Assembly: GCA_016215335.1 (NCBI GenBank)
Contig: JACRKE010000037.1
Coordinates: forward strand, 2,924-66,923
Length of the DNA: 64,000 nt
Source of the DNA: Candidatus Vogelbacteria bacterium
Lineage (GTDB): Bacteria > Patescibacteriota > Minisyncoccia > Phycocordibacterales > JACRKE01
Reading direction: 5' to 3'
Positions 2,145-60,772 of this stretch are shown in pieces (within the stretch, counting starts at the first letter, position 1; each line of letters starts with the position of its first letter). Position numbers and translations under genes: made by a program. The notes beneath the pieces were generated by a model, which saw only the letters and a list, made by a program, of their open reading frames with translations, made no database searches and was not told where the DNA came from.

Positions 2145-2169
2145 GGAAAAGTACATAGTATGTAGCGAA

Positions 2170-2208
2170 CCCCTATATACGATATACTATTTACTATATA
2201 CTAATTCA
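2170..2208 (+). promoter_or_regulatory. conserved upstream motif CCCCTATATAC-N9-TTTACTATATACTAATTCA abutting the comM ATG
   Basis: Near-identical blocks precede pilB (rc of 49981-50020), yidC (rc of 37429-37497), yebC (rc of 46759-46800) and the 60773 ORF (60735-60772); the TATACT -10-like hexamer ends 6-7 nt before the ATG. Confidence 0.55.
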
Positions 2209-6135: not shown

Positions 6136-6179
6136 GATTTAGGAATTGCCAGCAACAATAATCGTGCTACGATTATTGC

Positions 6180-7668: not shown

Positions 7669-10074
7669 CTATCGTTTCAGACGAGCGAAAATGTTTTCGT
7701 CCACTTCGCGTCTGTCTTGACCGTAAATCAGACGAGACAACTCCTTTAATTTTTCGCGTACCTCAATGTTACCCCTCGGTGCAAATATGACTTTCGTCAA
7801 AAATGGGCGAGTGGGCACACCCCCGATAAGCATCTTTGTATGTCCAAAAAGATTATCTGAAGTCGTGAGATCGTGCGTGTTGAAAACCGGCTCAAACTGT
7901 TTACCTAGAGTTTCAGTATCCGGCACACCGACCCTGAAAGCGATCATGGAACCGACGTTTCCAAATATGGCATCTCTAATTTTGTCCCCCAATTGATTAA
8001 TGAACTGATTGGCGACTGTAAGACACAGACGATATTTTCTGGCTTCTGAAAGAATGGTTCCAATGGTATCCGTTGTGAAATTCTGGAACTCATCCATGTA
8101 CAGATAGAAATCTCGACGATCCTTCTCTTCCTGATCCACTCTCCCAAACGCAGCCATCATAAGTTTGCCTACAATTATCATACCTAGCAAATTTGCGTTC
8201 ATCTCGCCAATTACACCTTTTGGAAGGTTGACGAAGAGAATTTTGCCTTCATCCATAATCTTCCTGAAATCAAAAGCAGACTTCTGCTGACCGATAATAG
8301 GTCTCATATAGTCGTTGTTTACGAATTGTGTGAATTTGGAAGTTATATAAGTTGTCATGTTGGGAAGAGACCCTTCACCCGTACGCTTGGAAGCATTCTG
8401 CCAAAAACCGACAACAAGGGGATCCTTACAAAGTTCGAGTTTGCGATTACGATATTCATCGTCCGTAAACAGACGCTGGACATCGAGAAGGCTTGCGTGA
8501 GATTTCTCATACTGTGCGCACTCTGTGAGCAACAAAAGTGCGTTTCTGAAATAAAGTTCAAACATTGGACCGCCCGTGGTCTTCAAATCATAAAGCTTGT
8601 CGAAAATTGTGAGCATTTCATTCACCACAAACGATCTTTGCTCCGGGTGGTTGAGATCATACTCAAGCATATTGAGGCCAACAGGACGAGACATGTCGGA
8701 AGGGTCAAATATAATAACGTCTTCTATCCTTTCTTTTGGAACATTCGCAATCATTAGATTAAAGAAGTCAGTATTCGGGTCTATGATGCAGACTCCTTTA
8801 CCATTTCTAATATCCTGTGCGGCAAGGCTCGCGAGAAGTGCGGTCTTTCCGGATCCTGTCTGGCCAATGGAGTAAAGGTGGCGCCTGCGATCTTCGTCTG
8901 TCAGTTTTACCAGTTTTGTGTCGCCCCTGAAAACACTTTCACCTAAAATTATCCCCTCGTTCGGAAGATTCTCCGGAGGAGGGGCCTCCTTGTCCTTCAA
9001 CCATTTAACGTATGGCACCGAACTAGAAGTGGTCGGCAAGTGGAACATACTAGCCATCTCTTCGGTATTTAGAAGCATGGATTCGTCTTTCTTAAACTCT
9101 CTGAATGCGTACGAAAATATAAGCCCCCTCACATCTTTCGGCTTAATACACTCTATTGTATTTCTTTGCGGAGAAGAAAACTGAGCAAAGGCGCTGCCGA
9201 TAGAGAGAAGCAGGTCTTCGGCACGATCTTTCACGGTGGCAGCTGTTATAATTCTCAAATTAACTTCGAACAAAGGCTTCGCAATCTTCTGTTGTAGCGC
9301 CTTAATCGCATCTTCGTCGATTATGATTGGCTTTGTTTTGTCGTCATCTTTCTTGTCGTTATCGGTTGTCATGAGAAAAGATTTACCGATTTTTGCAATG
9401 TCTTTACCTCTTACGAATCTAGTGTCAATAGCCTCTGAAAGTTTCGTGCCCTTCTTTAGACTATTGATTGAACTTAGTATGGACTTTTTCGTAGAATCGG
9501 CACTTGGAATCGCAACCATTTGGAGAGAGGCGCCTTCACCTTCAGTCGCGAGCTTGCTAAATGAGCTCAAAATCGGCCCAAATGTATCGGCTTCAGCCTC
9601 TTTGTATGTACGAATTGGCAAGACGAAGCTATCTTTAAGGCGCATGTACGCCGCGGAAGCCTTGGCCCCAGGCGCAAAAATAGTGTAATCAGAAATCTCC
9701 TCAATCTGCGCATCTAGAAATACTCCCTGTATCTGTCTGGCCGCGAATTCTACGTATTGCTTTGGCACGGCAACGTAGAAAAGGATGTCTTGCGTTTTAT
9801 TCAAAACTGAAACCTCGAAAACAAATGGTTGCTTAATGGCCGCAAGAGCTGCGAAAACTTGTTCCGATAGCATTATCTGCTTTGTGAGTTCATTTTTTTC
9901 TTTAGCGGCCTCATCGCCCTCATTTCTCGGCAACCTGAGAGAGAGCAGTCTCAAATCAAGCATCTCTTGGGCAACCTTCGAACCGCCTTTTTTTGCTTTG
10001 AATATCAGATACGCGACCAGGAGCAACAGTGCGACCGCGACCAAAATATATAAATAGAGCGAAATTTGAGACAT
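7669..10074 (-). CDS. type IV secretion coupling-protein-like ATPase (VirD4/TraG/TraD-like)
   Basis: N-terminal TM helix, Walker A GQTGSGKT, Walker B-plus motif LYMDEFQNF...ARKYRLCLTVANQFINQL typical of TraG/VirD4 (DE...RK...Q..Q), 801 aa. Confidence 0.55.
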   Translation of the reverse strand: MSQISLYLYILVAVALLLLVAYLIFKAKKGGSKVAQEMLDLRLLSLRLPRNEGDEAAKEKNELTKQIMLSEQVFAALAAIKQPFVFEVSVLNKTQDILFYVAVPKQYVEFAARQIQGVFLDAQIEEISDYTIFAPGAKASAAYMRLKDSFVLPIRTYKEAEADTFGPILSSFSKLATEGEGASLQMVAIPSADSTKKSILSSINSLKKGTKLSEAIDTRFVRGKDIAKIGKSFLMTTDNDKKDDDKTKPIIIDEDAIKALQQKIAKPLFEVNLRIITAATVKDRAEDLLLSIGSAFAQFSSPQRNTIECIKPKDVRGLIFSYAFREFKKDESMLLNTEEMASMFHLPTTSSSVPYVKWLKDKEAPPPENLPNEGIILGESVFRGDTKLVKLTDEDRRRHLYSIGQTGSGKTALLASLAAQDIRNGKGVCIIDPNTDFFNLMIANVPKERIEDVIIFDPSDMSRPVGLNMLEYDLNHPEQRSFVVNEMLTIFDKLYDLKTTGGPMFELYFRNALLLLTECAQYEKSHASLLDVQRLFTDDEYRNRKLELCKDPLVVGFWQNASKRTGEGSLPNMTTYITSKFTQFVNNDYMRPIIGQQKSAFDFRKIMDEGKILFVNLPKGVIGEMNANLLGMIIVGKLMMAAFGRVDQEEKDRRDFYLYMDEFQNFTTDTIGTILSEARKYRLCLTVANQFINQLGDKIRDAIFGNVGSMIAFRVGVPDTETLGKQFEPVFNTHDLTTSDNLFGHTKMLIGGVPTRPFLTKVIFAPRGNIEVREKLKELSRLIYGQDRREVDENIFARLKR

Positions 10075-10089
10075 TATTTTAGCACAATC

Positions 10090-10533
10090 TTAGTTAATCA
10101 GATTATGATTTTTGAGCTCATCATAGAGCTTGTCCACGAGGGCATCATGAAATGCGTCCAGTATAAATGGGTCTTCTTCCACAACCTGCTTGATTGTTTG
10201 GCTGATTCCTTTTTCAAAGATAGTGGCCATAAGAGCGTTAATCTTAGCCACAGCATCGTTGTCTAGAGTATCCAAATAAGTCGGTCTCTTGGCTTTAACC
10301 ACGGGTGCGACTTTGGACGAAGCGGACGGGCTAGTTGTGGGCGGGGTGATACTCATTGCCTGGCCCATTACCTCTCCGATTTTTTCAGCCACAACATGAC
10401 GTACCAGCTCTTTTTCCTCGACTATGCCATGTCCAGCTTCAAGCATTCTCCTTTTCTCCTCAATCTGCCTAGACAGCTCGGCTATCTCAGCCTCCACATT
10501 TCCGCGATTTATTTGATCAGTCATAATATCCAT
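10090..10533 (-). CDS. hypothetical coiled-coil protein
   Basis: 147-aa ORF immediately downstream of the VirD4-like gene; no motif. Confidence 0.3.
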   Translation of the reverse strand: MDIMTDQINRGNVEAEIAELSRQIEEKRRMLEAGHGIVEEKELVRHVVAEKIGEVMGQAMSITPPTTSPSASSKVAPVVKAKRPTYLDTLDNDAVAKINALMATIFEKGISQTIKQVVEEDPFILDAFHDALVDKLYDELKNHNLIN

Positions 10534-10647
10534 TTTAGCACGACAAAAGAAGAAAAAGTGTGGACAGCAAAAAAGATTTCCCCAAAATATGCATTGACTA
10601 TGGTTGGAATAAGCAGGACAATTGGTACATATTCATATCTTTTATAA

Positions 10648-18332: not shown

Positions 18333-20378
18333 ATGAACAACTTATCAACAACTAATTCTAACTTGAATGAGGCTCAGCAATCAGCTGCTAATCATAAAGA
18401 CGGGCCGCTTCTCATAATCGCGGGTGCTGGCGCAGGTAAAACCAAAACCATAGCCCATCGAATAGAGAATCTCGTGGCAGGAGGCATCCTTCCTCATAAA
18501 ATTCTAGCCGTAACCTTCACAAACAAAGCAGCAAAAGAGATGCGGGAACGGATTGAGAGATTACTCTCAGAGTCCAGAGGCAGGAACCAAGAGGTAAGAG
18601 CTGATACGGGCCCCACCACAACCTACAACCTACAACCTACAACCTTTCCGTTCGTTGCCACCTTCCACGGTCTCGGCGTTCAGATTATAAAAGAAAACGC
18701 GGGAATCTTCGGAACCACCAAATATTTCACTATTTTAGACAAAAGCGAGACCCTCTCACTCATTAAAAAAGCCCTAAAAGACAAGGGCTTTGATCCAAAA
18801 ATTGAGTCACCGGGGAGACTCCAAAACTTCATTTCAGGACAAAAGAACAAGCTTGTTTCGTATGTAGATTTCAAGAAACTCGAGCCCGAAAGCTATTTCT
18901 ATGAAGTAGCTGAAAAAGTGTGGGGGAGGTATGAACAGTCTCTGAATGAGCAAAAGTCGTTCGACTTTGACGACTTGATTTTGAAGCCAGTTCGTCTCTT
19001 TCGAGAGCATCCGGACATTCTCGAGCGCTATCAAGATCGCTGGACCTATATTCACATTGACGAATACCAAGACACCAACAAAGCGCAATATGAACTATCA
19101 CGGCTTCTTTCAGACAAACACAAAAACATTTGTGTCGTTGGAGACGCTGATCAAAGTGTGTACGGATGGAGGGGTGCAGACTTTAAAAATATTTTAGATT
19201 TCGAAGAAAACTTTCCGAATTCGACCGTAGTTTTACTTGAAGAAAATTATCGCTCTACCAAAATTATTCTCGACACCGCGAATGAGATAATAAAGAAGAA
19301 CAAACTGCGTAAAGAGAAAAATCTGTTCACACGGAAAACCGGTGGAGAAAAAATCTCTGTTTATGAAGCATTCGACGAAGCGGATGAAGCAAGAAATATT
19401 GCAAAAAACATCGATACTATTTTGAAATCAGGAGTAAAGCTGGAGGAGATTGCCGTTTTGTATCGTGCCAACTTTCAATCACGTGCAATCGAAGAAGCGC
19501 TTCTTTTGCGCGGAGTTCAGTATCAAGTGCTTGGTACGAAATTTTATGACAGAAAGGAGATCAAAGATACGATTGCGTTCGTGCGTGCGTCGATGAACGA
19601 AAAAGATTACGCGTCATGGGAAAGGATTATAAATGTGCCAGCCCGCGGAATAGGGGATGTAACATTCAATAAAATTATTTCGGGGAGACTCGCGGAATTA
19701 CCGCAAAAAATGCAAGAAAAAGTCAGAGATTTTGAAAGACAACTAGTACACTTTAGAGATTTTTTACTTGTAGATAAACTCTCCGAATCCATTAAAAAAA
19801 TTATACGAGAAAGTGGTATGGAAAAGATGTACACCGAAGGGTCAGAGGAAGATGAAGAACGCCTCGAAAACCTCAAAGAACTAGTTACCATAGCCACAAA
19901 ATACGATCTGTTTCCACCGGAAGAGGCTGTGGAACGGTTTCTCACCGATACCGGACTTATGTCGGATCAAGACAGTCTGAAGGAGCGAGGAGGGGGCGTA
20001 AAACTCATGACGATTCACGCGTCGAAGGGCCTAGAATTTCGACATGTTTTTGTTACAGGGCTTGAACAAGGTTTATTCCCGCACGAGCGTCTTGAAAGCT
20101 CGAGGTCAATGGAAGAAGAGAACGAGGAAGAGCGTAGACTTTTTTATGTTGCAGTTACGCGTGCAAAAGAAAAGTTGCACTTGTCGTACGCAATATGTCG
20201 AACAATTTTCGGAAACAGACGAACCAATTTACCATCAGAATATCTGGGAGATATTAGCGAGGACGTAATTGATTTAACAAGTGCAATGGGGAATAGCAGT
20301 GGTAGGCAGTACATGTATAGTGATCCAGAGGCAGGAGATGATGTTATACAGTGGGGATGTCTTGGGGGAGGAAAGTAG
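18333..20378 (+). CDS. uvrD: UvrD/PcrA-type SF1 DNA helicase
   Basis: Walker A AGAGAGKTKT, motif Ia ATFHGLG, UvrD-family motifs through VTRAKEKL; carries an in-frame CTACAAC heptamer array (TTYNLQPTT). Confidence 0.85.
   Translation: MNNLSTTNSNLNEAQQSAANHKDGPLLIIAGAGAGKTKTIAHRIENLVAGGILPHKILAVTFTNKAAKEMRERIERLLSESRGRNQEVRADTGPTTTYNLQPTTFPFVATFHGLGVQIIKENAGIFGTTKYFTILDKSETLSLIKKALKDKGFDPKIESPGRLQNFISGQKNKLVSYVDFKKLEPESYFYEVAEKVWGRYEQSLNEQKSFDFDDLILKPVRLFREHPDILERYQDRWTYIHIDEYQDTNKAQYELSRLLSDKHKNICVVGDADQSVYGWRGADFKNILDFEENFPNSTVVLLEENYRSTKIILDTANEIIKKNKLRKEKNLFTRKTGGEKISVYEAFDEADEARNIAKNIDTILKSGVKLEEIAVLYRANFQSRAIEEALLLRGVQYQVLGTKFYDRKEIKDTIAFVRASMNEKDYASWERIINVPARGIGDVTFNKIISGRLAELPQKMQEKVRDFERQLVHFRDFLLVDKLSESIKKIIRESGMEKMYTEGSEEDEERLENLKELVTIATKYDLFPPEEAVERFLTDTGLMSDQDSLKERGGGVKLMTIHASKGLEFRHVFVTGLEQGLFPHERLESSRSMEEENEEERRLFYVAVTRAKEKLHLSYAICRTIFGNRRTNLPSEYLGDISEDVIDLTSAMGNSSGRQYMYSDPEAGDDVIQWGCLGGGK
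18617..18646. repeat. CTACAAC/ACAACCT heptamer array (4 units) in frame within uvrD
   Basis: accacaacctacaacctacaacctacaacct encodes TTYNLQPTT. Confidence 0.8.
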
Positions 20379-20428
20379 TTAGTAGTTGGTAGATAGCCAC
20401 CGCATTTTGCGGGGCCCCGCCAGAGGCG

Positions 20429-21394
20429 ATGGTAGCTAGCATGAAATACAAAAAAACAAAACTGAATGATGGGCCCCAACCAGCTACTAACCACCGACTA
20501 CTAACTACGCATCCAAAACGCTCCCTAGGGCAAAATTTTTTAACTTCAGAAGCGGCTGTCGCGAAAATTGTTGCTGCGGGCGAAATCAAATCAGATGACA
20601 CTGTTCTTGAGATCGGTCCAGGGAGGGGAGTACTCACAAAAAAACTTCTATCCCTTGCTAGAAAAGTAATAGCGGTCGAAAAAGACGACGAGCTATTTGA
20701 ACTACTCCAAAATAAATTTGCCAAAGAAATCGAAACAGGAAGGTTGCAACTTGTGCATGAGGACATCTTGAAATTTGATGAATCTAACTACAACCTACTA
20801 ACTACAACCTACAACCTAATTTCAAACATTCCATACAACATTACAGGTGCGATCCTCCGTAAATTCTTAACATCAGAACACCAACCATCAACAATGGTTC
20901 TGCTCGTACAAAAAGAGGTGGCGGAAAGAATCGTTGCGCGTGACGGAAAAGAGAGTTTACTCTCCGTAAGTGTGAAGGTCTATGGAAATCCGCAATATAT
21001 AGCTACAGTTAAGGCCGGCAGCTTCTTCCCAGCTCCAAAAGTGGACTCGGCGATAATAAAAATAAGTGACATTTCCCGCGACTTTTTCACCCACATGGAA
21101 ACCGAGCTTCAAAATAAAATAACGTCTAAGAATAACGATTTTACAGAGGGTTCCCCTCTGTATGTGGATAAGTCTGACGTGGAAAGAGAGTTTTTTGAGT
21201 TTGTTTCGGCTGGGTTTGCTCACAAGCGCAAGCTTCTATCCCGGAATTTGGCAGGATATTTTGGAGACCAGGGAGAATGGCTTCAGGCGTGCACAATTGT
21301 AAAAATAAATCCCAAATCCAGGGCGGAAAACTTAAATATTGAAAATTGGAAAATACTCTTTAACTTATCCACAAAAAACCAGAAAAATCCTTAG
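20429..21394 (+). CDS. rsmA: 16S rRNA (adenine1518/1519-N6)-dimethyltransferase RsmA/KsgA
   Basis: SLGQNFL, SAM-binding motif LEIGPGRGVLT, NIPYNIT motif; in-frame heptamer-repeat insert (YNLLTTTYNL) and extended C-terminus. Confidence 0.8.
   Translation: MVASMKYKKTKLNDGPQPATNHRLLTTHPKRSLGQNFLTSEAAVAKIVAAGEIKSDDTVLEIGPGRGVLTKKLLSLARKVIAVEKDDELFELLQNKFAKEIETGRLQLVHEDILKFDESNYNLLTTTYNLISNIPYNITGAILRKFLTSEHQPSTMVLLVQKEVAERIVARDGKESLLSVSVKVYGNPQYIATVKAGSFFPAPKVDSAIIKISDISRDFFTHMETELQNKITSKNNDFTEGSPLYVDKSDVEREFFEFVSAGFAHKRKLLSRNLAGYFGDQGEWLQACTIVKINPKSRAENLNIENWKILFNLSTKNQKNP
20784..20818. repeat. CTAACTA/CAACCTA heptamer array (5 units) in frame within rsmA
   Basis: ctaactacaacctactaactacaacctacaaccta encodes NYNLLTTTYNL; related degenerate copies at 20379-20396 and 20477-20510. 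Confidence 0.8.
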
Positions 21395-21434: not shown

Positions 21435-22151
21435 ATGAAGAAAGAGCCGCAAAAAATGTGGCCGATATTTGCATTAGGAGCGGTGGTAGTTCTCGCCATC
21501 GTGCTTAAGATTTATACATGGATATTTTCAGGGGAGACCCTCCCGCCGGCTGAATACAAGGCAGTTGTTGGACCAGTGGGGACGAGCACTGGACTTGCTT
21601 TCAATATGGCCAACTGGCAAATCAATCCCTCCACCTCAAGCAACGAGTTTTCTAGTGTTGAGCCGATGAAAAACTTCACCGACAGCGACATTAAGAAAAC
21701 TTCCGATAATGGCAAGACGAGAATAAAAATGTACGCGACAGCTTTGAAATCAGCTCTGGCGCCGTATTCTGACCCCAAGCAGAAAAGTGCACCAGAAATA
21801 CTCATGAAAGTGTACGAAACGAACGACCCCGCCGAGCTTTCGAAACTTCTAGAAGCAAAAAATAATCACCAAACGGCACTGAACTCTCTACTTGCAATTG
21901 AAGTACCATCAGACATTGCGCGTTACCACTTAGTCTTAATCAATTCTGTAGGAAGATTACACTTTCTCGTAAATAATATGCTCAAAGTGGGGGACAAGCC
22001 AGTACTCGCGCTCACGAGCGCTAGAATCTTTGGCTCCGAAGTAAACAGATTCGCTGATGCTCTGACCGTTTTAAATAATGTTTTTTATAACAAAGGTTTA
22101 GTTTTCGAAGAGAAGGACGAGGTTAGGATTTATTTAACCGCCACCAAGTAA
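21435..22151 (+). CDS. hypothetical membrane-anchored protein
   Basis: 238 aa, N-terminal TM (IFALGAVVVLAIVLKIYTWIF), periplasmic-type remainder. Confidence 0.35.
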   Translation: MKKEPQKMWPIFALGAVVVLAIVLKIYTWIFSGETLPPAEYKAVVGPVGTSTGLAFNMANWQINPSTSSNEFSSVEPMKNFTDSDIKKTSDNGKTRIKMYATALKSALAPYSDPKQKSAPEILMKVYETNDPAELSKLLEAKNNHQTALNSLLAIEVPSDIARYHLVLINSVGRLHFLVNNMLKVGDKPVLALTSARIFGSEVNRFADALTVLNNVFYNKGLVFEEKDEVRIYLTATK

Positions 22152-22160
22152 CTTGCAGTT

Positions 22161-25100: not shown

Positions 25101-25886
25101 TGCAGAGCCAATCCGACAAGTCGAATATGTGGCGGAAATGGCGGCGGGGGCGGGGGAGATAATCCACCTGCTGAAGTCAAACCAGTCCTCGCACTATCAA
25201 GCACAAAAACAACGGTGAATGGTCTGCCAGCGGTAAGTTTGACATGGGCCGTGAACGGCGCAAGGTCGTGCCGAACCGATAACGCTTGGGTGAGTTACGG
25301 CAAAGGCGCGAGCGCATCGCTTACAAAAGAAAACTTGGTAACATCAGGTTCATCACTCCCGCCAAAATGCGGGAGTGGAAATGGGACATGCAGCCAAACG
25401 GTTTATGAGCCGGCGGTGTTTAAAGTGGCAGTATCGATCACATCGCCATCAGGCGTTCCGCGCGCCGACCAATCGCGCTCATTTGAAACATCACTCACGA
25501 TGGAACCGACGCTCAATCAGTCTTCCGGCAGTACGGTCTACCAAACAACTTCATTTAGGCCAAACTTAAGTGGTGTTGTCGCGGGAGACTCTGTTGTTCT
25601 AACCGTAAACGGATCCACGCTTAGAGGTGTAATCCCGGCAGGAACAGTAAGCGCTTCACTCGTCACCGATCTTATACGAGACGCTAAGAGCCTTCTCACT
25701 CCTACGAGCCCGGAGTATGAAACGTTTAATTCTCTCACTCTCTCGTCTCTAAACGAAATCCTCACTATTTCCGGAAGCACACGAAGCACGGCCACAATAC
25801 CCGCGAATACAGAATACAAAATGTCTTGCGAGAACAACGCGGGAGAGACCAAAGATTCCACAGTTTCAACAATAGCAACCCCATAG
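22161..25886 (+). CDS. giant (1241-aa) membrane-anchored surface protein with G/S-rich and D/G-rich acidic tracts
   Basis: N-terminal TM (YALVILLTFPLLALYL); long low-complexity Gly/Ser/Ala/Asn-rich region; acidic DGGDDRDQDGNPGGDNDDGGGNDDDGDGGGDDGG tract; Cys-containing C-terminal domain. Confidence 0.5.
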   Translation: MKPKENSAKTDRHRENVKKYALVILLTFPLLALYLKFDTPKVSASIIETIQNGMTNFNQSVGNATGGGNSATGASNSGVGKVSCFEQTGLPISDSELAPNKTPSATPADGVKATVGAVRTIGEGVAARLNQAGPGIEALGIVAFGSRPASTAIAMGLPLTNKTLATTQVSTIGNFASHSISNEAIKVDDSKPILPHSYYSIMESPKVLAVAVISDTTTISEQMSLLLGVVTEIGKEIKTLGGTAPNKTEFFQGTQIISTSLDNLSSMFRAQPTSANRNLIQSSITALTASLKETQIAQTDVNRALAVSDLVIRGGNLLSQIAQVPIRPSSEEIESLRLFNENGATFNQSMQNIYDLTNDTGSGMPLENAAVLAEIIKIVSDEYSVALQTASATGNYNSPAFLEAARRMKVLTDNLTTLSNRNVSDDVATGATNNLINGGIISSNQGPSALSGMQAINTIAQMSGSGGGTQSFTNINRAIQQSGMLSSGAGAQMGNALQAFEQIQKIFSGKGGAMGILQGVKQLSGMFSGGSSSIGRAVSNMGSGAGGGGLGAGGGNTPPLNPSPEEVNGQRIAARDLSDSAGGVKEDADDAGDKAAEAPAAGEGTPEAVDKKGAEKEGGAGTGGTSKKTPIADNLGGSEIGVPVNVKKGTPYFNIVKSIREISSQACDYLADIDLIQQLTWDKIHVQDPKTVNEVAEATKKAAEEWEKTMADKRKLPDGNKGSFRPTYEQFEKENVTVADAAAYDRAKKAFEKNAFKDELQKKLEAEMKKSADKDVSFESVLKIAKEKPKEGKDQKTANDFIQAHSPYFDPTILYGKAIEMVKDTRTKRIEDAQATYQGNLTVPPQTKCEGAGRKVKNAQGKEICIHPEIDGPAGAVLALTDYRWRTSPIEQADSTTGTSQRDHKERVAEAPKEQLPDSGMQDGGDDRDQDGNPGGDNDDGGGNDDDGDGGGDDGGDDGGGGGGNGGGGEDWLKKLLEIYCRANPTSRICGGNGGGGGGDNPPAEVKPVLALSSTKTTVNGLPAVSLTWAVNGARSCRTDNAWVSYGKGASASLTKENLVTSGSSLPPKCGSGNGTCSQTVYEPAVFKVAVSITSPSGVPRADQSRSFETSLTMEPTLNQSSGSTVYQTTSFRPNLSGVVAGDSVVLTVNGSTLRGVIPAGTVSASLVTDLIRDAKSLLTPTSPEYETFNSLTLSSLNEILTISGSTRSTATIPANTEYKMSCENNAGETKDSTVSTIATP

Positions 25887-25887
25887 A

Positions 25888-28347: not shown

Positions 28348-28366
28348 ATCATAAATATACAACATC

Positions 28367-28975
28367 ATGCAAAACTTAAACATAAACGACTACTCAAGTA
28401 GACTGACCAATCTTCCACCAAAACTGAAGCAGGCGATTTTGTCTGCCGATACACAATCGGCCATCGAAAACATTCACCAAAAGTACAAGCTTCATATTGA
28501 CAAACTAGGGAACCTTGAAGACATTACTCTCGATGTGCTGTACGGGGTGATAAAGCCCCAGGAGTATGTAGACAAGCTGGAATCAACACTTGGGATTGAT
28601 CGGGCTACAGCGGCGGGAATAACGGTCGACATGAACAACTCCCTCTTCCAGCCACTTCGAGACTCACTCATGGAGATTGGCACACCGAGTAATCACGTTG
28701 AATCTGATAGGACTTCCATTTTAAATGAAATACAGAATCCCACACCCACACCCATATCCGGAAGAGTAGTAATTGATTCAATGGGGGAGCCTGAAATTAG
28801 TGCGGCCCAGAGTCAAGAGTTAGGAGTTAGGAGCCAAGAATTAGAATCCGAATCCCAACTACCAACTACTGAACCCAAAGCATTCAACTCTATAGCGGAG
28901 GAGAAGCTTGCAGGCCCAGTAGTGGCAGAAAAAATAGAGACAAGGGTTGATCCGTATTTGGAAGCGCTGAATTAG
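28367..28975 (+). CDS. hypothetical protein
   Basis: 202-aa ORF inside the T4SS-like cluster; its stop codon TAG is the first unit of a TAGGTTG heptamer array. Confidence 0.3.
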   Translation: MQNLNINDYSSRLTNLPPKLKQAILSADTQSAIENIHQKYKLHIDKLGNLEDITLDVLYGVIKPQEYVDKLESTLGIDRATAAGITVDMNNSLFQPLRDSLMEIGTPSNHVESDRTSILNEIQNPTPTPISGRVVIDSMGEPEISAAQSQELGVRSQELESESQLPTTEPKAFNSIAEEKLAGPVVAEKIETRVDPYLEALN

Positions 28976-29003
28976 GTTGTAGGTGGTAGGTTATAGGTTG
29001 TAG
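28972..29003. repeat. TAGGTTG heptamer array (reverse complement of CAACCTA), about 4.5 units
   Basis: Begins with the TAG stop of 28367..28975. Confidence 0.8.
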
Positions 29004-29076
29004 AACATACGGGCACATCAATACACAAGAGCAAACACAGTGAGCGTAGTATAATAAAATCAATCTTAGATTTAAA

Positions 29077-29484: not shown

Positions 29485-29566
29485 TTACGAATACAGATTT
29501 ATGATTTAGGAATAAATGTACAGCTCTTAAATCTTAAATCTAATCTCCTAAATCCACCTAAAACAA

Positions 29567-30223: not shown

Positions 30224-30227
30224 ACAT

Positions 30228-32084: not shown

Positions 32085-32110
32085 GGGGACAGAAAATACA
32101 CATTGGAAAC

Positions 32111-32168
32111 TTGAAACTGGAAGTTAGAAACTGGAATGGTACATTATTCAAGTTTCCATATTCCAGTT
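32111..32168 (+). repeat. cassette-boundary repeat copy A (AAACTGGAAGTTAGAAACTGGAATGGTACATTATTCAAG)
   Basis: ~40-nt unit sharing ~85% identity with copy B; lies 27 nt after the VirB4 stop. Confidence 0.7.
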
Positions 32169-32188
32169 ACCAGATTCTAAACAAAAAA

Positions 32189-37428: not shown

Positions 37429-37497
37429 GAGCTAATTAGTATATAGTAAGACCAATCAGTATATAGTATATAGTATATAGTATATAGTATATAGGGG
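37429..37497 (-). promoter_or_regulatory. same upstream motif before yidC, containing a (GTATATA)x5 tandem expansion
   Basis: rc reads TCTCCCCTATATAC(TATATAC)x4...TACTATATACTAATTAGCTC-ATG. Confidence 0.5.
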
Positions 37498-38012: not shown

Positions 38013-38175
38013 AAAGTTAGTGTATACTATTTGCACTCTGAAGACAAATAGTTTTTATTTCAAAAGTTTTTCGTAAAAAAAGTTAGACACAGGCAATCCA
38101 CAGACTTATGCACACATTTAGGTAGTTTTCCACAGGGGATAGAGGAGTATACTAAGAAAATTCTAACCATAAACT
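38013..38175. promoter_or_regulatory. rpmH-dnaA divergent spacer with DnaA-box-like 9-mers (candidate oriC segment / dnaA promoter)
   Basis: CAATCCACA 38094-38102, TTATGCACA 38106-38114, TTTTCCACA 38126-38134 (consensus TTATCCACA). Confidence 0.5.
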
Positions 38176-46163: not shown

Positions 46164-46216
46164 GGACTTATTCTACAACCTACAACCTACAACCTACAAC
46201 CTACAACCTACAACCC
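46129..46216. repeat. heptamer tandem array: (NNNTAGT)x4 followed by (CTACAAC)x6
   Basis: Directly visible; lies in the yebC-ruvC spacer and the annotated ruvC 5' end. Confidence 0.85.
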
Positions 46217-46224
46217 GTCTTGGT

Positions 46225-46758: not shown

Positions 46759-46874
46759 GGTTTGTATATGGTATATAGTACATAGTATATAGGAAAACTC
46801 AATATTTTATTCAGCGAGGATTAATGGGTTGGAGTTCACTATATACTATGTACAATTTACTATATACTTTCCCC

Positions 46875-47921
46875 CTATATACCCATCCGAGTTTGTTTGT
46901 CATCAGGTGCTGGAAATCCAAGATGCTCGTATCCCTTCGACGTCGCCACTCGTCCTCTCGGCGTGCGCTCGATCATTCCTTGTTGGAGTAGAAATGGTTC
47001 GTACACATCTTCAATAGTTGCTTCTTCTTCTGATGTTGCAGCTGCAAGAGTGCTGACTCCCACGGGGCCACCGTTGAACTTTTCAATAAGTACTGAAAGT
47101 ATCCTTCTGTCAGACGCAGTCAGTCCAAGCTCATCCACTTCGAGCATATTGAGCGCTTCTTTTACCGTCTTTTTGTCTAGTTTTATTTTGTGTACTTGTG
47201 CATAGTCGCGACAGCGTTTTAGAAACTGGTTTGCAATGCGCGGAGTACAACGACTGCGAGCCGCGATCTCTTTACATGCATCGTTTTCAGTATCAACACT
47301 TAAAATTTCTGCAGAACGCCTTATGATTTTCTCTACTTCATCCGGAGAATAAAACTCCATGCGAAAAGTTCCTCCGGAAAAACGTGAACGAAGCGGGGAA
47401 GAGAGTAGAGCCATGCGTGTGGTGGCGGCAATTAGAGTAAACGGCGGAAGTTCGAGCTGGATTGTGCGCGCTGATGGACCTTTGCCAATAATAATATTGA
47501 GTACGCCTGACTCCATGGCCGGGTAAAGTACTTCTTCTATGGTTTTGTTTAATCGATGTATCTCGTCAATGAAAAGTATGTCTCCAGCCTGTAGGTTCGT
47601 AAGGATCGATGCAAGGTCTCCGACTTTTTCTACGGCAGGACCGGAAGTTACCTTCATTTGAGCGGAAAGTTCTTTGGCAATTAGATGCGCGAGGGTTGTT
47701 TTGCCAAGTCCGGGCGGGCCATAGAACAAAAGATGTTCCGGCGGGTGGCCGCGTTCACGCGCCGCCTGCAGAAGAATTTTCAAATTATTTTTGATGTTTT
47801 CTTGCCCGACGTACTCTTCCCAAACGGCGGGTCTAAGCGCGCTATCAAGAAAGCGATCATCCATCTGACCTTGGTTTTTCTCTTTGCTAGAGCCGTTTTT
47901 TGGCGCGCTACTGCTTGACAT
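46875..47921 (-). CDS. ruvB: Holliday junction branch-migration ATPase RuvB
   Basis: LLFYGPPGLGKTTLAHLIA Walker A, DEIHRL Walker B, sensor motifs, winged-helix C-terminus. Confidence 0.9.
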   Translation of the reverse strand: MSSSSAPKNGSSKEKNQGQMDDRFLDSALRPAVWEEYVGQENIKNNLKILLQAARERGHPPEHLLFYGPPGLGKTTLAHLIAKELSAQMKVTSGPAVEKVGDLASILTNLQAGDILFIDEIHRLNKTIEEVLYPAMESGVLNIIIGKGPSARTIQLELPPFTLIAATTRMALLSSPLRSRFSGGTFRMEFYSPDEVEKIIRRSAEILSVDTENDACKEIAARSRCTPRIANQFLKRCRDYAQVHKIKLDKKTVKEALNMLEVDELGLTASDRRILSVLIEKFNGGPVGVSTLAAATSEEEATIEDVYEPFLLQQGMIERTPRGRVATSKGYEHLGFPAPDDKQTRMGI

Positions 47922-49980: not shown

Positions 49981-50020
49981 ACGAATTAGTATATAGTAAA
50001 TAGCATATGGTATGTAGGGG
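49981..50020 (-). promoter_or_regulatory. same upstream motif before pilB
   Basis: rc reads TTCCCCTACATACCATATGCTATTTACTATATACTAATTCGT-ATG. Confidence 0.5.
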
Positions 50021-58179: not shown

Positions 58180-60688
58180 CCAAAGAAAAAAAATAGTTCT
58201 TCTTGATACTCACGCGATTCTTCATCGCGCATACCATGCCCTGCCGGATTTTGCGAGCGACAAGGGAGAACCGACTGGTGCGCTCTATGGCTTAACGGTT
58301 TTGCTTCTAAAACTTATCAAAGAATTTCGGCCGGAGATAATCGTGGCATGTTACGATCTGCCGAAACTTACTTTTAGACACGCAAAGTTTGCTGAATATA
58401 AAGCTGGTAGAGCACAAGTCGAGGATAACTTAATTTCCCAAATTAGGCGTTCGAGCCAGCTTTTCGAGGCGTTTGGAATTCCTATCGTGGCGGCGCCAGG
58501 TTTTGAGGCAGATGACATGCTAGGAACCATTGTAGAAAAGTTGAAAGGTAATAGGAGTTATCAAATTATTATTGCGTCGGGAGACATGGACACTCTCCAG
58601 CTCGTGACAGACGATAATGTGGTTGTATATACTCTGAAAAAAGGTATCAACGACACAATAATTTATGACGAGAAAGGGGTAAAAGCCCGCTTCGGTTTTG
58701 GGCCTGAACTTTTGCCTGATTATAAGGGGCTTCGTGGAGATCCGACTGACAATATACCGGGGGTGAAAGGCATAGGGGAGAAGACTGCAACGGAACTCAT
58801 CCTGAAGTTTGGCACGATCGAGAAAATGTACGAAACATTAGAAAAGCACAAAACACAAACCGTACAAAAACCAAACAAAACACAAAACTCAAAAAACAAA
58901 AGTTCGTCAAAAAACCAAAACGAATTCGGATTGTCACCGAGGATTTTGGATTTATTACTTGCGAACAAAGAAGAGGCTGAATTTTCAAAAATGCTTGGTA
59001 CCATCAGACGCGATGCGCCAATTGATTTTTCGCTAGAGCTGAGTAACTTCAAAGATAATTTCAAAATTGAAACAGCCAAAAAGTTTTTAGGCGAACTATC
59101 ATTTAGAAGCTTAGTTCCGCGACTCAATGAGGTTGCGACCGGAGAAGTTAAGAAACCGCAGATGTCGACAAAACCTAATCATGGAAGCGAGCTCTCTGTT
59201 GACTGGGCAGAAAGCCCTGCGAATGCAATAGATGCTGTTGTCCGAGGCGAGACCTCGGACATGCCGATTGTTGACGTAAATTCTCAGCAGTTCAAACGTT
59301 CGGCTATTATGTATTGGCTTATTGATTCCAGTAAGACCGATCCGACAGGACAACAGATATTTGAATATACCAAAACTAACAATCTTGAAGACGCGGAAAA
59401 TTTTTTATTAAAAAAAATTAAAATCGACAAGCTCGAAGATGTGTATAAGGAAATCGAGCTTCCACTTATTCCCATTCTTGAACGAGTAAAAGAACACGGA
59501 ATGCTCGTGGATGTAGGGTATCTGAAAGAGCTCTCAGATAAATATCATATAGTTTTAAGCCAACTTGAAAAAGATATTTGGGAACTTGCGGGAGGCGAGT
59601 TTAATATTAATTCTCCAAAACAACTTGGGGAAATCATTTTCGATAAACTCGGACTGGGTGGTAAGAAAGTGAAGAAAACCGCAACAGGAAACGCTTCGAC
59701 CAAAGTGGAAGAATTGGAGAAGCTAAAAGGCACTCATCCTATTATTGAAAAGATCATGGATTATCGAGAATACCAAAAGTTACTCTCAACCTATATTGAC
59801 TCTATACCGGAACAACTCGGCAAGGATGGCAGACTCCACTCAGATTTGATTCAGACTGGTGCCGCAACGGGTAGAATGTCGTCTCACAATCCAAATCTTC
59901 AAAATATTCCCATTAAAACTGAACTAGGCAGGGTAATTAGGAAGGCATTTGTTGCGAGCCTCGGATTTGTGCTCGCCGCCTTCGACTACTCGCAAATTGA
60001 TCTACGCATGGCGGCACTGCTCTCTAGGGATCCGCTGTTTATAAAAATATTTCAAGGCAAGAATGATGTACATACGAGTGTGGCGTCTCTTGTATTTAAA
60101 GTTGCACCAGAGAAAGTGGATCGTGAGATGCGAAGACGGGCTAAAGTAATAAACTTCGGAATATTGTACGGTATGGGAGTGAATGCGCTTAAACAAAATT
60201 TAGGCACAGAGAGAAAGGAAGCCGAAGAGTTTTACAAAATGTATTTTGAACAGTTCCATGGGCTTCGAGAATATCTTGATTCTCTAAAAGAGTTTGCCAG
60301 AAAAAACGGCTACACCACAACCTTTTTTGGCCGCAGGAGATACTATCCAAAAATTAAATCCCCGATGCCTTTCGTCCGAAGTATGGAAGAACGTATGGCT
60401 ATGAACGCGCCAATACAAGGCACCTCTGCCGACGTGATTAAACTTGCCATGAGCAAGGCGGATGAAGAACTTAAAAAAGCGGGCATTGAAACTAAAGTTT
60501 TTCCACTGCTTCAGGTGCACGATGAACTAATATATGAAATAAAAAAGGGTGTAGAGAAAGAAGCTACTAAAATAATAATTAAAGCAATGGAAAGCGTGCT
60601 CGACGGGCCGGTACCACTCGAAGTACATGCATCTTTAGGCAAGGATTGGGGAACTCTCGTTGGTACTAATATAGTATATTGTACATAG
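58172..60688 (+). CDS. polA: DNA polymerase I (5'-3' exonuclease + family A polymerase)
   Basis: 5'-nuclease motifs (LLDTHAILHRAYHA, GDPTDNIPGV); polymerase motif A (DYSQIDLRMAA), motif B (RRRAKVINFGILYGMG), motif C (LQVHDELIYE); low-complexity K/N/Q/S insert between domains; overlaps tsaE by 8 nt. Confidence 0.85.
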   Translation: MSDQRKKIVLLDTHAILHRAYHALPDFASDKGEPTGALYGLTVLLLKLIKEFRPEIIVACYDLPKLTFRHAKFAEYKAGRAQVEDNLISQIRRSSQLFEAFGIPIVAAPGFEADDMLGTIVEKLKGNRSYQIIIASGDMDTLQLVTDDNVVVYTLKKGINDTIIYDEKGVKARFGFGPELLPDYKGLRGDPTDNIPGVKGIGEKTATELILKFGTIEKMYETLEKHKTQTVQKPNKTQNSKNKSSSKNQNEFGLSPRILDLLLANKEEAEFSKMLGTIRRDAPIDFSLELSNFKDNFKIETAKKFLGELSFRSLVPRLNEVATGEVKKPQMSTKPNHGSELSVDWAESPANAIDAVVRGETSDMPIVDVNSQQFKRSAIMYWLIDSSKTDPTGQQIFEYTKTNNLEDAENFLLKKIKIDKLEDVYKEIELPLIPILERVKEHGMLVDVGYLKELSDKYHIVLSQLEKDIWELAGGEFNINSPKQLGEIIFDKLGLGGKKVKKTATGNASTKVEELEKLKGTHPIIEKIMDYREYQKLLSTYIDSIPEQLGKDGRLHSDLIQTGAATGRMSSHNPNLQNIPIKTELGRVIRKAFVASLGFVLAAFDYSQIDLRMAALLSRDPLFIKIFQGKNDVHTSVASLVFKVAPEKVDREMRRRAKVINFGILYGMGVNALKQNLGTERKEAEEFYKMYFEQFHGLREYLDSLKEFARKNGYTTTFFGRRRYYPKIKSPMPFVRSMEERMAMNAPIQGTSADVIKLAMSKADEELKKAGIETKVFPLLQVHDELIYEIKKGVEKEATKIIIKAMESVLDGPVPLEVHASLGKDWGTLVGTNIVYCT

Positions 60689-60734
60689 TATATAGGGATG
60701 AAAACCTTGTAGCTCTCGAAATAATCTTAAATTT

Positions 60735-60772
60735 ACCTATATACAATTTACTATTTACCATATACTAACCCG
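60735..60772 (+). promoter_or_regulatory. same upstream motif before ORF 60773
   Basis: TACCTATATACAATTTACTATTTACCATATACTAACCCG-ATG; an oppositely oriented degenerate copy overlaps the polA 3' end at 60668-60702. Confidence 0.45.

What the first reader, a model, noticed from the sequence alone, without database searches (positions are those of the whole stretch)
2170..2208. Conserved ~40-nt AT-rich block (CCCCTATATAC...TTTACTATATACTAATTC) placed immediately before start codons of unrelated genes; possible lineage-specific promoter for leaderless or short-leader mRNAs
Near-identical blocks abut the ATG of:
- comM (2170-2208)
- pilB (rc of 49981-50020)
- yidC (rc of 37429-37497, with a (GTATATA)x5 expansion)
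- yebC (rc of 46759-46800)
- ORF 60773 (60735-60772)

A related TAGTATACACTAAC / GAGTATACTAAG precedes rpmH and dnaA. TAGTATAAT precedes the PrgI-like gene.

The -10-like TATACT ends 6-7 nt before the ATG. Transcription would therefore start at or next to the start codon.

Almost no gene here has a Shine-Dalgarno, whereas the GC-rich island and the small Cys-rich ORF do.

Oppositely oriented partial copies occur at the 3' ends of polA (60668-60702) and ruvB (46838-46882). The element is near-palindromic (TAGTATATA / TATATACTA), so it may also act as a bidirectional element or protein-binding site.
Basis: seen in the sequence. Interest (0 to 1): 0.7.

Follow-up and report, generated by a model that had tools for sequence, protein, structure and literature searches.

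The report
Heptad-repeat promoters for leaderless genes
The repeated AT-rich block in front of several genes of this uncultured Candidatus Vogelbacteria genome is a tandem array of 7-base units whose last unit supplies a promoter -10 box 6-7 bases before the ATG, so these genes are probably transcribed without a leader; the arrays resemble heptamer repeats already described, but not explained, in other bacteria.

Summary
Five blocks abut the start codons of comM, pilB, yidC, yebC and ORF 60773, and two inverted copies lie at the 3' ends of ruvB and polA.

The block is not a unitary 40-nt consensus. It is four to five degenerate CTATATA heptads, usually after a C-run. It is one family within a clade-wide set of period-7 arrays: 19 in this window, against none in shuffles and none for periods 8-12. 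These arrays are strongly G-poor on one strand, mostly intergenic, sometimes inside coding sequence, and often in inverted pairs.

The leaderless-promoter reading is supported for the last heptad only. TATACT ends 6, 7 and 6 nt before the ATG of comM, pilB and ORF 60773. Across 112 ORFs of this clade, TANNNT peaks at a 6-nt gap (14 against about 2.7) and there is no Shine-Dalgarno peak. Array-poor relatives show the same peak.

The upstream heptads carry neither a -35 nor a TG motif. Orthologous comM, pilB, yebC and ruvC promoters in relatives carry arrays of different units. What reads the arrays is unknown.

The closest analogues are the Beggiatoaceae TAACTGA repeats, cyanobacterial STRR repeats and omega-repressor heptad operators. 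I rate it a new variant of a known kind, of moderate interest.

The parts
2170..2208 (+). Family-A heptad array upstream of comM: CCCC, then CTATATA CGATATA CTATTTA CTATATA CTAATTCA. The -10-like TATACT is at 2197-2202 and the ATG at 2209 (6-nt gap).
   Evidence: (TRF: period 7, 4.4 copies). ComM is confirmed. The N-terminus MLSKVY is conserved in relatives.
2150..2165 (+). Short inverted partner (AGTACATAGTATGTAG) of the comM array. It can pair with the first heptads.
   Evidence: hairpin -13.8 kcal/mol, z = -1.45, not significant.
49981..50020 (-). Family-A array upstream of pilB: CCCCTACATACCATATGCTATTTACTATATACTAATTCGT. TATACT is at 49988-49993 and the ATG at 49980 (7-nt gap). The 21-mer CTATTTACTATATACTAATTC is identical to the one in the comM copy.
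37429..37497 (-). Family-A array filling the rnpA-yidC spacer: CCCC, then five perfect CTATATA units, then TGATTGGTCTTA, then CTATATACTAATTAGCTC. The proximal TATACT is at 37438-37443 and the ATG at 37428 (9-nt gap).
   Evidence: (period 7, 5.3 copies, 100% match). A Logan contig from the same sample ends inside this array.
46759..46800 (-). Family-A array upstream of yebC: TTCCTATATACTATGTACTATATACCATATACAAACC. TATACA is at 46763-46768 and the ATG at 46758 (4-nt gap).
46835..46882 (+). Inverted family-A copy overlapping the ruvB stop codon. It contains a perfect 15-nt complement (GTACATAGTATATAG, read on the minus strand) of the yebC array.
   Evidence: (hairpin -33.7 kcal/mol, z = -1.66).
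60735..60772 (+). Family-A array upstream of ORF 60773 (239 aa, no Pfam match): ACCTATATACAATTTACTATTTACCATATACTAACCCG. TATACT is at 60761-60766 and the ATG at 60773 (6-nt gap).
60668..60702 (-). Inverted family-A copy overlapping the last codons and the stop of polA.
46164..46220 (-). Array of a second family, (GTTGTAG)x6 perfect, between the yebC stop and ruvC. Its last unit runs into TAGAAT, then 6 nt, then the GTG of ruvC (46163). A G-less array (CTCACTA GGAACTA CTCACTA CAAACTA CTCACTC) follows inside the ruvC N-terminal codons (46125-46160).
   Evidence: (6.1 copies, 100% match). A Logan contig ends inside the array.
38021..38026 (-). Single TATACA -10-like box (AGTATACACTAAC) 8 nt before the rpmH ATG at 38012. 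There is no array here.
38148..38153 (+). Single TATACT box (GAGTATACTAAG) 22 nt before the dnaA ATG at 38176. This implies a short leader, not a leaderless transcript.
28971..29009 (+). Array of GTTGTAG-type units just after the stop of ORF 28367-28975 and about 70 nt upstream of the PrgI-like gene, which has its own TATAAT.
29521..29566 (+). TCTTAAA-type heptad array running up to the ATG of ORF 29567.
20371..20398 (+). AGTAGTT-type array at the uvrD stop. It is inverted relative to the CTACTAA units in the first codons of ksgA (20470-20510).

Best explanation
Each block is the promoter region of a gene transcribed without a leader, or with at most about 3 nt of leader.

The last full unit of a tandem array of CTATATA heptads provides a sigma-70-type -10 hexamer, TATACT. 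It sits 6-7 nt (range 4-9) upstream of the ATG, so transcription would start at or next to the A of the ATG. No Shine-Dalgarno sequence is then needed.

The 25-60 nt upstream of the -10 is not a -35 element. It is a heptanucleotide tandem repeat of the kind called LSSR or STRR elsewhere. A small clade of Vogelbacteria-like Patescibacteria carries many such arrays, with many different units, all nearly G-free on one strand and usually starting after a C-run. They most plausibly arise by replication slippage.

The arrays are kept at particular promoters (comM, pilB, yebC, ruvC) while the unit sequence turns over. This suggests they do something there. Candidate roles are:
- standing in for the -35 and spacer region;
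- offering a 7-bp-register binding platform;
- forming a hairpin with an inverted partner at the end of the upstream gene, which would insulate the promoter from read-through.

Shown: the array anatomy, the -10 spacing, the clade-wide -10 peak, the lack of a Shine-Dalgarno signal, and positional conservation with unit turnover.

Inferred: the transcription start site, the slippage origin, and any role of the upstream heptads.
For: Period and anatomy:
- The window has 12 arrays of at least 4 units against 0 in shuffles, and none for periods 8-12. Relatives L002 and L005 show the same (TRF).
- The seven copies align.

-10 position:
- Gaps of 6, 7, 6, 9 and 4 nt can be read directly from the sequence.
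- Over 112 ORFs (window, L002, L005, L047), TANNNT peaks at a 6-nt gap: 14 against 2.7, P about 1e-6. SD-like tetramers are not enriched.
- The same peak appears in array-poor Paceibacteria.
- TATACT is also used at a 6-7 nt gap by array-free promoters in L002.

Start codons are secure:
- The N-termini MLSKVY (ComM) and MPFDD / MPQFDE (PilB) are conserved, while the upstream DNA is not.

Placement and orientation:
- Five of seven copies abut a start codon in the sense orientation (P about 1e-6).

Positional conservation with different units:
- comM in L002 has CTACTNN units, and in L005 TTTTGTG-type units, with TTTAAT plus 6 nt plus ATG.
- pilB in L047 has CCCCA, then CTNCCAC-type units, then TATACT plus 6 nt plus ATG.
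- yebC in L047 has CTACAAG units, then TACTAT plus 6 nt plus ATG.
- ruvC has arrays in the window, L047 and L048.

Other array properties:
- Arrays are enriched in intergenic DNA: 12 of 19, although only 7.5% of the window is non-coding (P about 1e-9).
- Arrays are 6.9% G on one strand, against 19% for random 35-mers oriented the same way.
- Inverted array pairs fold into long hairpins in relatives (z = -5.8 and -5.4).
Against: - No 5'-end data exist for this organism or any close relative. The start site is inferred from spacing alone.
- Family A has no -35 match and no TG extension. Array-free promoters in the same window often have TGn or TTGACA. On sequence alone the blocks are weak promoters.
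- yidC (9-nt gap) and yebC (TATACA, 4-nt gap) fit less well.
- In yidC, five further perfect TATACT copies lie upstream and would predict extra starts.
- Four of the five genes follow a co-directional gene. Read-through transcripts carrying the array as an internal untranslated region cannot be excluded.
- For pilB, a CTGACA-18-TACCAT pair at the 5' edge of the block would place most of the block in a 5' UTR.
- The near-absence of G on the sense strand is what an unstructured RNA leader would look like.
- Hairpins in the window itself are not better than shuffles (z = -1.0 to -1.7).
Confidence: 0.55

Rival explanations
1. Translational element. The array is transcribed from a promoter further upstream or as part of an operon. 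It then acts as an unstructured, G-free 5' leader that recruits ribosomes without a Shine-Dalgarno sequence, for example through S1 or a cold-shock-type RNA-binding protein. This was proposed for the TAACTGA repeats of Beggiatoaceae.
For: - Arrays next to start codons are G-poor on the sense strand in 13 of 15 cases.
- No SD signal is present.
- Four of the five genes follow a co-directional gene.
- A possible -35/-10 pair lies at the 5' edge of the pilB block.
- The published analogue has the same geometry: forward orientation, ending a few nt before starts that lack an RBS (PMC4679880).
Against: - It does not explain why a TANNNT hexamer sits at exactly 6-7 nt. This spacing is shared with array-free genes and with array-poor relatives.
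- The ruvC arrays are G-rich on the sense strand.
- Where an inverted partner exists, a transcript holding both arms would bury the region next to the ATG in a long hairpin.
- Arrays also occur after stop codons and inside coding sequence.
Confidence: 0.2
2. Operator arrays. The heptads are binding sites for a protein that reads DNA in a 7-bp register. The model is the ribbon-helix-helix omega/ParB protein of pSM19035, which binds four or more contiguous heptads in direct or inverted orientation. ToxT and H-NS on the ctx TTTTGAT heptads are a second model. The protein would switch a set of DNA-uptake and recombination genes (comM, pilB, yebC, ruvC) on or off.
For: - Units are contiguous, in both direct and inverted orientation, and overlap the -10 and the region upstream of it.
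- The two best-conserved boxes are 21 bp apart, so they lie on one face of the helix.
- The same functional set of genes carries arrays in two or three genomes.
- There is physical precedent for reading heptads (PMC9499535; ctx heptads).
Against: - In the relative Ga0210057_1000141, the comM, pilB, yebC and ruvC arrays have four different units. A single sequence-specific reader is therefore unlikely there.
- No ribbon-helix-helix or other candidate gene was found among the window ORFs scanned.
- Arrays also lie inside coding sequence.
- The loci studied were chosen around comM and pilB, so the functional theme may be a sampling effect.
Confidence: 0.2
3. Neutral microsatellites. The arrays are slippage products with no function. 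They accumulate wherever they are tolerated, and the only functional part is an ordinary -10 box that happens to be their seed or their boundary.
For: - Heptanucleotide repeats are the over-represented long simple repeat class in many bacteria, and slippage has been proposed as the cause (Mrazek 2007, as cited in PMC4679880 and PMC4692102).
- Units are highly diverse, and arrays occur in coding loops of uvrD, ksgA, polA and PNPase.
- The arrays are clade-restricted.
Against: - Sense orientation and fixed spacing to starts (P about 1e-6).
- Arrays persist at orthologous promoters across genomes whose ComM and PilB proteins are only about 67% identical, while the unit changes.
- Strong strand asymmetry.
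- No length variation between near-identical assemblies. This argues against very high slippage rates.
Confidence: 0.25
4. Contingency loci. Changes in heptad number switch promoters on and off by altering spacing, or switch coding sequences by frameshift, in pilus, competence and repair genes.
For: - Perfect arrays lie at the yidC promoter (5 units), the ruvC promoter (6 units) and inside uvrD (4 units).
- There are precedents for repeat-number control of promoters (the ctx heptads; other examples are reviewed in PMC4679880).
Against: - Most arrays are degenerate.
- No copy-number difference is seen between assemblies from different samples at 99.995-100% identity that cover at least 15 arrays.
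- yidC and ruvC are unlikely targets for on/off switching.
Confidence: 0.07
5. Mobile element. The blocks are copies of a MITE- or REP-like element spread by a transposase.
For: - The comM and pilB copies share an identical 21-mer.
- A Y1 (IS200-like) transposase gene flanked by REP-like palindromes lies in the window.
Against: - The blocks have no terminal inverted repeats and no target-site duplications, and a block is not a palindrome by itself.
- Similarity between copies is explained by the shared heptad.
- The REP-like palindrome is a different sequence.
- Locus L062 has two Y1 transposase genes and no heptad arrays.
Confidence: 0.03

Closest known systems
TAACTGA direct heptamer repeats of marine Beggiatoaceae (MacGregor 2015, PMC4679880)
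   Same: Both are tandem 7-nt units, 2-6 per set, often interrupted by a related 7-mer. Most are intergenic, in forward orientation, and end a few nt before start codons that lack a ribosome-binding site. A minority lie inside ORFs or as inverted repeats. Downstream genes are unrelated in function. The function is unresolved.
   Different: - The unit differs (CTATATA and many others, not TAACTGA).
- Here one genome has many unit families.
- Here the last unit forms a -10 hexamer at leaderless spacing. That points to transcription, whereas a translational role was suggested there.
- The host is a Patescibacterium.
Cyanobacterial STRR repeats and other heptanucleotide long simple sequence repeats (Mazel 1990; Mrazek 2007; Xanthomonas/Nostoc GGGAATC repeats, PMC4692102; Nostoc heptamers near recF and recO, bioRxiv 10.1101/2022.06.06.494920)
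   Same: Period 7 is specifically over-represented. The arrays are intergenic, occur in several unit families per genome, sometimes form inverted pairs, and lie near start codons or promoters, including those of DNA-repair genes. Orthologous sites are kept while length and sequence vary.
   Different: - Those arrays are often longer, and some are G-rich and form quadruplexes.
- They have no reported fixed relation to a -10 box or to leaderless starts.
- They have not been reported in Patescibacteria (searches found nothing).
Bacterial leaderless promoters (the -10 box about 7 nt before the start codon, as in Actinobacteria, Deinococcus and GeneMarkS-2 group C genomes)
   Same: TANNNT lies at a 6-nt gap from the ATG, there is no Shine-Dalgarno sequence, and ATG starts are used. 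The pattern is clade-wide.
   Different: In family A the -10 is one unit of a tandem repeat, and neither a -35 nor a TG extension accompanies it.
Heptad operators and centromeres bound by the omega (ParB) ribbon-helix-helix protein of pSM19035 (PMC9499535)
   Same: Both are contiguous 7-bp units in direct and inverted orientation, four or more per site, lying at promoters.
   Different: - The consensus differs (WATCACW there; recalled from memory, not checked in the paper).
- No cognate protein was identified here.
- Here the units vary from site to site.
TTTTGAT heptad repeats of the Vibrio cholerae ctxAB promoter
   Same: Tandem heptads lie immediately upstream of the core promoter, their number affects promoter activity, and regulators bind them (abstract listed).
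   Different: - That is a single locus.
- The repeats lie upstream of the -35, not at the -10.
- The reader proteins are known (ToxT/ToxR from the abstract; H-NS recalled from memory).

Membership tests
Sigma-70-type promoter of a leaderless mRNA | A -10 hexamer (TANNNT) ending about 6-7 nt before the start codon | tested here: met
   TATACT lies at gaps of 6, 7 and 6 nt (comM, pilB, ORF 60773). yidC has 9 nt. yebC has TATACA at 4 nt. This matches the clade-wide peak.
Sigma-70-type promoter of a leaderless mRNA | A -35 hexamer at 16-18 nt, or a TGn extended -10 | tested here: not met
   The consensus scan calls no -35/-10 pair that ends at these TATACT boxes. The bases before TATACT are CTA or CCA, not TGn.
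Sigma-70-type promoter of a leaderless mRNA | A mapped primary 5' end at the start codon | not testable with these tools
   No transcript data exist for this MAG or its relatives.
Sigma-70-type promoter of a leaderless mRNA | An AUG start and no Shine-Dalgarno sequence | tested here: met
   All five genes start with ATG, and there is no GGAG/GAGG/AGGA enrichment upstream.
Heptanucleotide tandem repeats (LSSR / STRR type) | Head-to-tail units with a period of exactly 7 and at least 3 units | tested here: met
   TRF finds period 7 with 4-6 copies at every family-A site. Lag-7 self-similarity is seen for period 7 only.
Heptanucleotide tandem repeats (LSSR / STRR type) | Dispersed over many loci and enriched in intergenic DNA | tested here: met
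   There are 19 arrays in 64 kb, of which 12 lie in the 7.5% that is non-coding. The same holds in L002, L005, L047 and L048.
TAACTGA-type start-proximal repeats | The unit TAACTGA | tested here: not met
   The units here are CTATATA, CTACAAC, CTACTAA, TCTTAAA and others.
TAACTGA-type start-proximal repeats | Forward orientation, ending within a few nt of a start codon that lacks an RBS | tested here: met
   Five of seven family-A copies qualify. Thirteen of 15 start-proximal arrays have the G-poor strand as the sense strand.
REP elements with a RAYT transposase | Each unit is an imperfect palindrome with a conserved GTAG head, and a Y1 transposase gene is flanked by such units | tested here: not met
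   A family-A block is a direct repeat, not a palindrome. The Y1_Tnp gene at 62812-63453 is flanked by a different palindrome.
MITE | Terminal inverted repeats and a target-site duplication | tested here: not met
   The alignment of the copies with their flanks shows neither.
Omega/RHH heptad operator | Four or more contiguous 7-bp units, direct or inverted, at a promoter | tested here: met
   Inverted partners are shown.
Omega/RHH heptad operator | A cognate ribbon-helix-helix protein and a fixed unit consensus | tested here: inconclusive
   No RHH domain was found in the window ORFs scanned, but only 64 kb of the genome is available. Units differ between sites in the relatives.
DNA uptake sequence (DUS/USS) | One short fixed motif at high density genome-wide, often as inverted pairs behind genes | tested here: not met
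   There are only 7 family-A sites in 64 kb, the units are variable, and most sites are in front of genes, not behind them.

The most novel reading that the evidence does not exclude
In one clade of Patescibacteria, G-free heptanucleotide arrays may be a true cis-regulatory class read by their 7-bp register and strand composition, not by a fixed sequence.

The arrays would stand in for the -35 and spacer of leaderless promoters. With an inverted partner, they would act as combined terminator and promoter modules.

They would preferentially control DNA uptake, pilus and recombination genes (comM, pilB, yebC, ruvC). This would explain why the arrays stay at orthologous promoters while their units turn over.
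Probability: 0.18. Interest if true: 0.75.

Novelty: new variant of a known kind. Interest (0 to 1): 0.5.

Why it matters
Patescibacteria make up a large share of bacterial diversity, yet almost nothing is known about how they start transcription and translation.

These data give a sequence-level case that Paceibacteria-type genomes use leaderless mRNAs widely. The -10 box sits 6 nt before the ATG and there is no Shine-Dalgarno signal. This affects gene calling and start-codon choice in thousands of MAGs.

The data also tie heptamer repeats next to start codons to a concrete promoter feature. These repeats have been an unexplained oddity since 1990 in cyanobacteria and since 2015 in Beggiatoaceae. 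The link gives a testable idea for what they do in all these lineages.

On the practical side, the perfect arrays break short-read assemblies.

Tried and rejected
- **Whole-collection scan for CTATTTACYATATACTAA in genome contigs.** The source MAG is not in that collection. The 39 hits are about the number expected by chance, so the genome-wide distribution could not be obtained. Fourteen of the 39 lie in longer period-7 arrays in Bacteroidota, Atribacterota, a Sedimentisphaerales MAG and other CPR lineages. Most of these do not abut start codons.
- **Strain variation in array length.** The only other contigs of this organism (Logan, SRR12113407) are identical or end inside the arrays. Near-identical assemblies of the two relatives differ only by runs of N.
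- **Consensus promoter and terminator scan.** Hit counts are no higher than in shuffles, so it is uninformative except for showing that family A has no -35.
- **Hairpins formed by inverted copies in the window.** They fold no better than shuffles (z = -1.0 to -1.7), unlike those in the relatives.
- **Link to the Y1 transposase and REP-like palindrome.** Rejected, because the sequences are unrelated and array-poor L062 has two such genes.
- **Rfam.** It finds only a tRNA, so there is no known RNA family at the blocks.
- **Fixed phase between heptad register and ATG.** None is seen; the last CTA lies at -6 to -15, judged by eye.
- **Literature.** No paper was found on heptamer arrays or leaderless promoters in Patescibacteria.
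Not possible, because the window holds no rRNA gene.
Full report
**Source and genes**

The window comes from an uncultured Candidatus Vogelbacteria bacterium (Patescibacteria/CPR). Its ComM protein is 100% identical to an NCBI MAG protein on an 88.5-kb contig. The next relatives are only 66-67% identical. ORF 60773 has no Pfam match.

The blocks are at the stated places and are far beyond chance:
- CTATATAC occurs 17 times against 0.6 expected.
- CCCCTATATAC with up to 1 mismatch occurs 5 times against 0.4.
- The 15-mer TTTACTATATACTAA with up to 3 mismatches occurs 22 times against 1.8.

Start codons are at 2209 (comM), 49980 (pilB), 37428 (yidC), 46758 (yebC) and 60773. They are trustworthy because the protein N-termini are conserved in relatives while the upstream DNA is not.

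Five of the seven copies end 4-9 nt before a start codon in the sense orientation. With 55 starts and 4773 nt of intergenic DNA, this has a probability of about 1e-6. The other two copies are inverted and overlap the stop codons of ruvB and polA.

**What the block is**

The matches step by 7 nt. Tandem Repeats Finder reports period 7 at every site. The block is a C-run followed by four or five degenerate heptads: CTATATA, CnATnTA, CWATTTA, CYATATA, CTAAnnn (alignment). yidC has five perfect units.

This is one family among many. Arrays of at least 4 units occur 12 times in the window for period 7. They occur zero times in shuffles and zero times for periods 8-12. Two relatives show the same pattern. 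A looser scan finds 19 arrays in the window. Their units include CTACAAC, CTACTAA, AGTAGTT, TCTTAAA, TGGAAAC and AAAACAC.

Properties of the arrays:
- Twelve of the 19 lie in the 7.5% of the window that is non-coding (P about 1e-9).
- Others lie inside uvrD, ksgA, polA and the first codons of ruvC, keeping the 7-nt DNA period within the reading frame.
- One strand is almost free of G: 6.9%, against 19% for random 35-mers oriented the same way.
- They are clade-specific. They are abundant in the window, in L002, in L005/L047 (one genome) and in L048. They are absent or rare in more distant Paceibacteria.

**The promoter reading**

In family A the last full heptad gives TATACT. Its gap to the ATG is 6 nt (comM), 7 nt (pilB) and 6 nt (ORF 60773). 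For yidC the gap is 9 nt, and for yebC it is 4 nt with TATACA.

I asked whether that spacing means anything in this lineage. Over 112 ORFs from the window and three related loci, TANNNT shows a sharp peak at a 6-nt gap to the start codon: 14 cases against a background of 2.7 (Poisson P about 1e-6). Shine-Dalgarno-like tetramers show no peak. Array-poor Paceibacteria show the same peak, 20 of 138 against 3.7. This is the known signature of leaderless transcription, in which the -10 box ends about 6 nt before the first transcribed base.

Many gap-6 promoters here have no array. They often carry a TGn extension or a TTGACA -35. Family A itself has neither a -35 nor a TG. The upstream heptads therefore occupy the place of those elements.

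**Comparative evidence**

At orthologous genes in relatives the array is kept but its unit is different:
- comM in L002 reads CTACCAA CTACTGC CTACTAG CTACTGT CTACTAT ttgt ATG, with an inverted array upstream.
- comM in L005 has TTTTGTG-type units and TTTAAT plus 6 nt plus ATG.
- pilB in L047 reads CCCCA cttacta tctgcca tctacca cctgcga cctgc TATACT gactcc ATG.
- yebC in L047 has CTACAAG units, then TACTAT plus 6 nt plus ATG.
- ruvC has arrays in the window ((GTTGTAG)x6 running into TAGAAT plus 6 nt plus GTG), in L047 and in L048.

The VirD4-like gene has an array in L002 but not in the window. So conservation is partial.

Keeping the position while the unit turns over argues against a purely neutral microsatellite. 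It also argues against a single sequence-specific reader.

Inverted array pairs form long hairpins between genes in the relatives (z = -5.8 and -5.4). In the window itself the hairpins are unremarkable.

**What remains open**

- No transcript 5' ends are available.
- The G-free sense strand and the co-directional upstream genes keep a 5'-UTR or translational-enhancer model alive.
- A protein that reads a 7-bp register is physically plausible. The omega/ParB ribbon-helix-helix protein of pSM19035 needs four or more contiguous heptads in either orientation. No candidate gene was found in the 64 kb examined.
- Phase variation is not supported. Assemblies from different samples at 99.995-100% identity show no array length differences.

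**Relation to what is known**

- Heptanucleotide repeats are the over-represented class of long simple repeats in many bacteria (Mrazek 2007, as cited).
- Cyanobacteria have STRR heptamers.
- Xanthomonas and Nostoc have GGGAATC arrays.
- Nostoc has heptamers near the start codons or promoters of recF and recO, with measurable effects on expression.
- Marine Beggiatoaceae have TAACTGA repeats, most of which point toward start codons that lack an RBS and end 1 to a few nt before them.

The present case has the same geometry as the Beggiatoaceae repeats. It differs in host phylum, in having many unit families per genome, and in the fusion of the array to a -10 box at leaderless spacing. Searches found no report of this in Patescibacteria.

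A pattern scan of 185,579 genomes did not contain the source MAG. It returned about the number of hits expected by chance. Even so, 14 of the 39 hits lie in longer period-7 arrays in other phyla, a few of them next to start codons.

**Verdict**

The -10 box and the leaderless start are likely. The '40-nt promoter consensus' is in fact a heptad tandem array of unknown added function.
- It is a new variant of a known but unexplained kind of element.
- Interest is moderate. It would rise if 5'-end data confirm leaderless starts and a reader of the arrays is found.

Noticed in passing
window 18618-18645; 20470-20510; 20788-20818; 58843-58901; 46125-46160: Period-7 DNA repeats lie inside coding sequence: uvrD/pcrA (ACAACCT x4, perfect), ksgA (two sites), polA and the ruvC N-terminus. 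The G-poor strand is the coding strand. Against a Nomurabacteria PcrA, the uvrD site looks like an insertion of about 14 residues. A one-unit slip would shift the reading frame.
   Followed up: partly
window 62812-63453, with palindromes at 41241-41263, 62775-62797, 63249-63271 and 63473-63495: An IS200-like Y1 transposase gene (Pfam PF01797, E = 5e-9) is flanked by a perfect 23-nt palindrome, ACTTGGAAGC-NNN-GCTTCCAAGT. The palindrome is present four times against 0 expected. This looks like a RAYT/REP-type system. One copy lies inside the ORF as called.
   Followed up: partly
window 6165-6173, 10532-10540 (minus strand), 35982-35990, 57715-57723, 62797-62805, and upstream of 10074 (minus strand): A recurring (C)GTGCTAA / TGnTANNNT extended -10 motif lies directly before start codons. 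At two genes (7669-10074 and 10090-10533) it nearly touches or overlaps the called ATG, so those starts are probably a few codons further downstream (for example 10524).
   Followed up: partly
window and loci L049-L064: Leaderless architecture seems general in Paceibacteria. TANNNT peaks at a 6-nt gap in array-poor relatives too (20 of 138 ORFs against 3.7 background), with at most a weak SD-like signal. This is relevant to start-codon calling in CPR MAGs.
   Followed up: yes
L060 1-59 and L061 1-38 (Logan contigs of SRR12113407): Short-read contigs of the same organism end inside the perfect (CTATATA)n and (GGTTGTA)n arrays. The arrays therefore fragment assemblies.
   Followed up: yes
window 39795-39810: (TTATCAAC)x2, which resembles DnaA boxes, lies between dnaA and dnaN. 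This is a likely oriC region. The cumulative GC skew does not turn anywhere in the window.
   Followed up: no
window 52000-54000: A GC-rich island (55% against about 45%) holds a 398-aa ORF (52171-53367) with no Pfam match. It is followed by a 1314-aa surface-type protein with DUF11, fn3 and PhoD_N-like domains.
   Followed up: no
window 7669-10074 (minus strand) and 21435-35905: There is a type IV secretion-like gene set: a VirD4/TraG-like coupling protein, a PrgI-family protein (29077-29484), a VirB4/TraG P-loop ATPase (30228-32084) and several large ORFs without Pfam matches.
   Followed up: no
window 46225-46758; L047 13865-14395: YebC is only 176-177 aa in both genomes, against about 240 aa usually. 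Part of the third domain is missing. It is a lineage feature, not a truncation in this MAG.
   Followed up: partly
L020, L028, L030 (Atribacterota); L017; L039, L008 (Bacteroidia); L025: Similar G-poor heptad arrays (ACTATAT / ATACTAA units) occur in unrelated phyla. In two Atribacterota loci the array sits just upstream of a canonical TTGACA-17-TAAAAT promoter. In L039 and L025 it runs up to an ATG.
   Followed up: partly
L002 3140-3235; L005 5338-5417: Relatives carry two adjacent heptad arrays inside the PNPase gene, between the second RNase PH domain and the expected KH/S1 region. The L002 array (CTACAAA CTACTCA ...) is nearly identical to the array in the ruvC N-terminus of the window.
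   Followed up: no
window arrays in GTAG/TAG orientation, for example 46164-46220 and 28971-29009: Because 7 and 3 share no factor, a heptad containing TAG puts a stop codon in all three frames every 21 nt on that strand. The G-free strand is almost free of stop codons, which is why ORF callers over-extend comM and pilB through the arrays.
   Followed up: no
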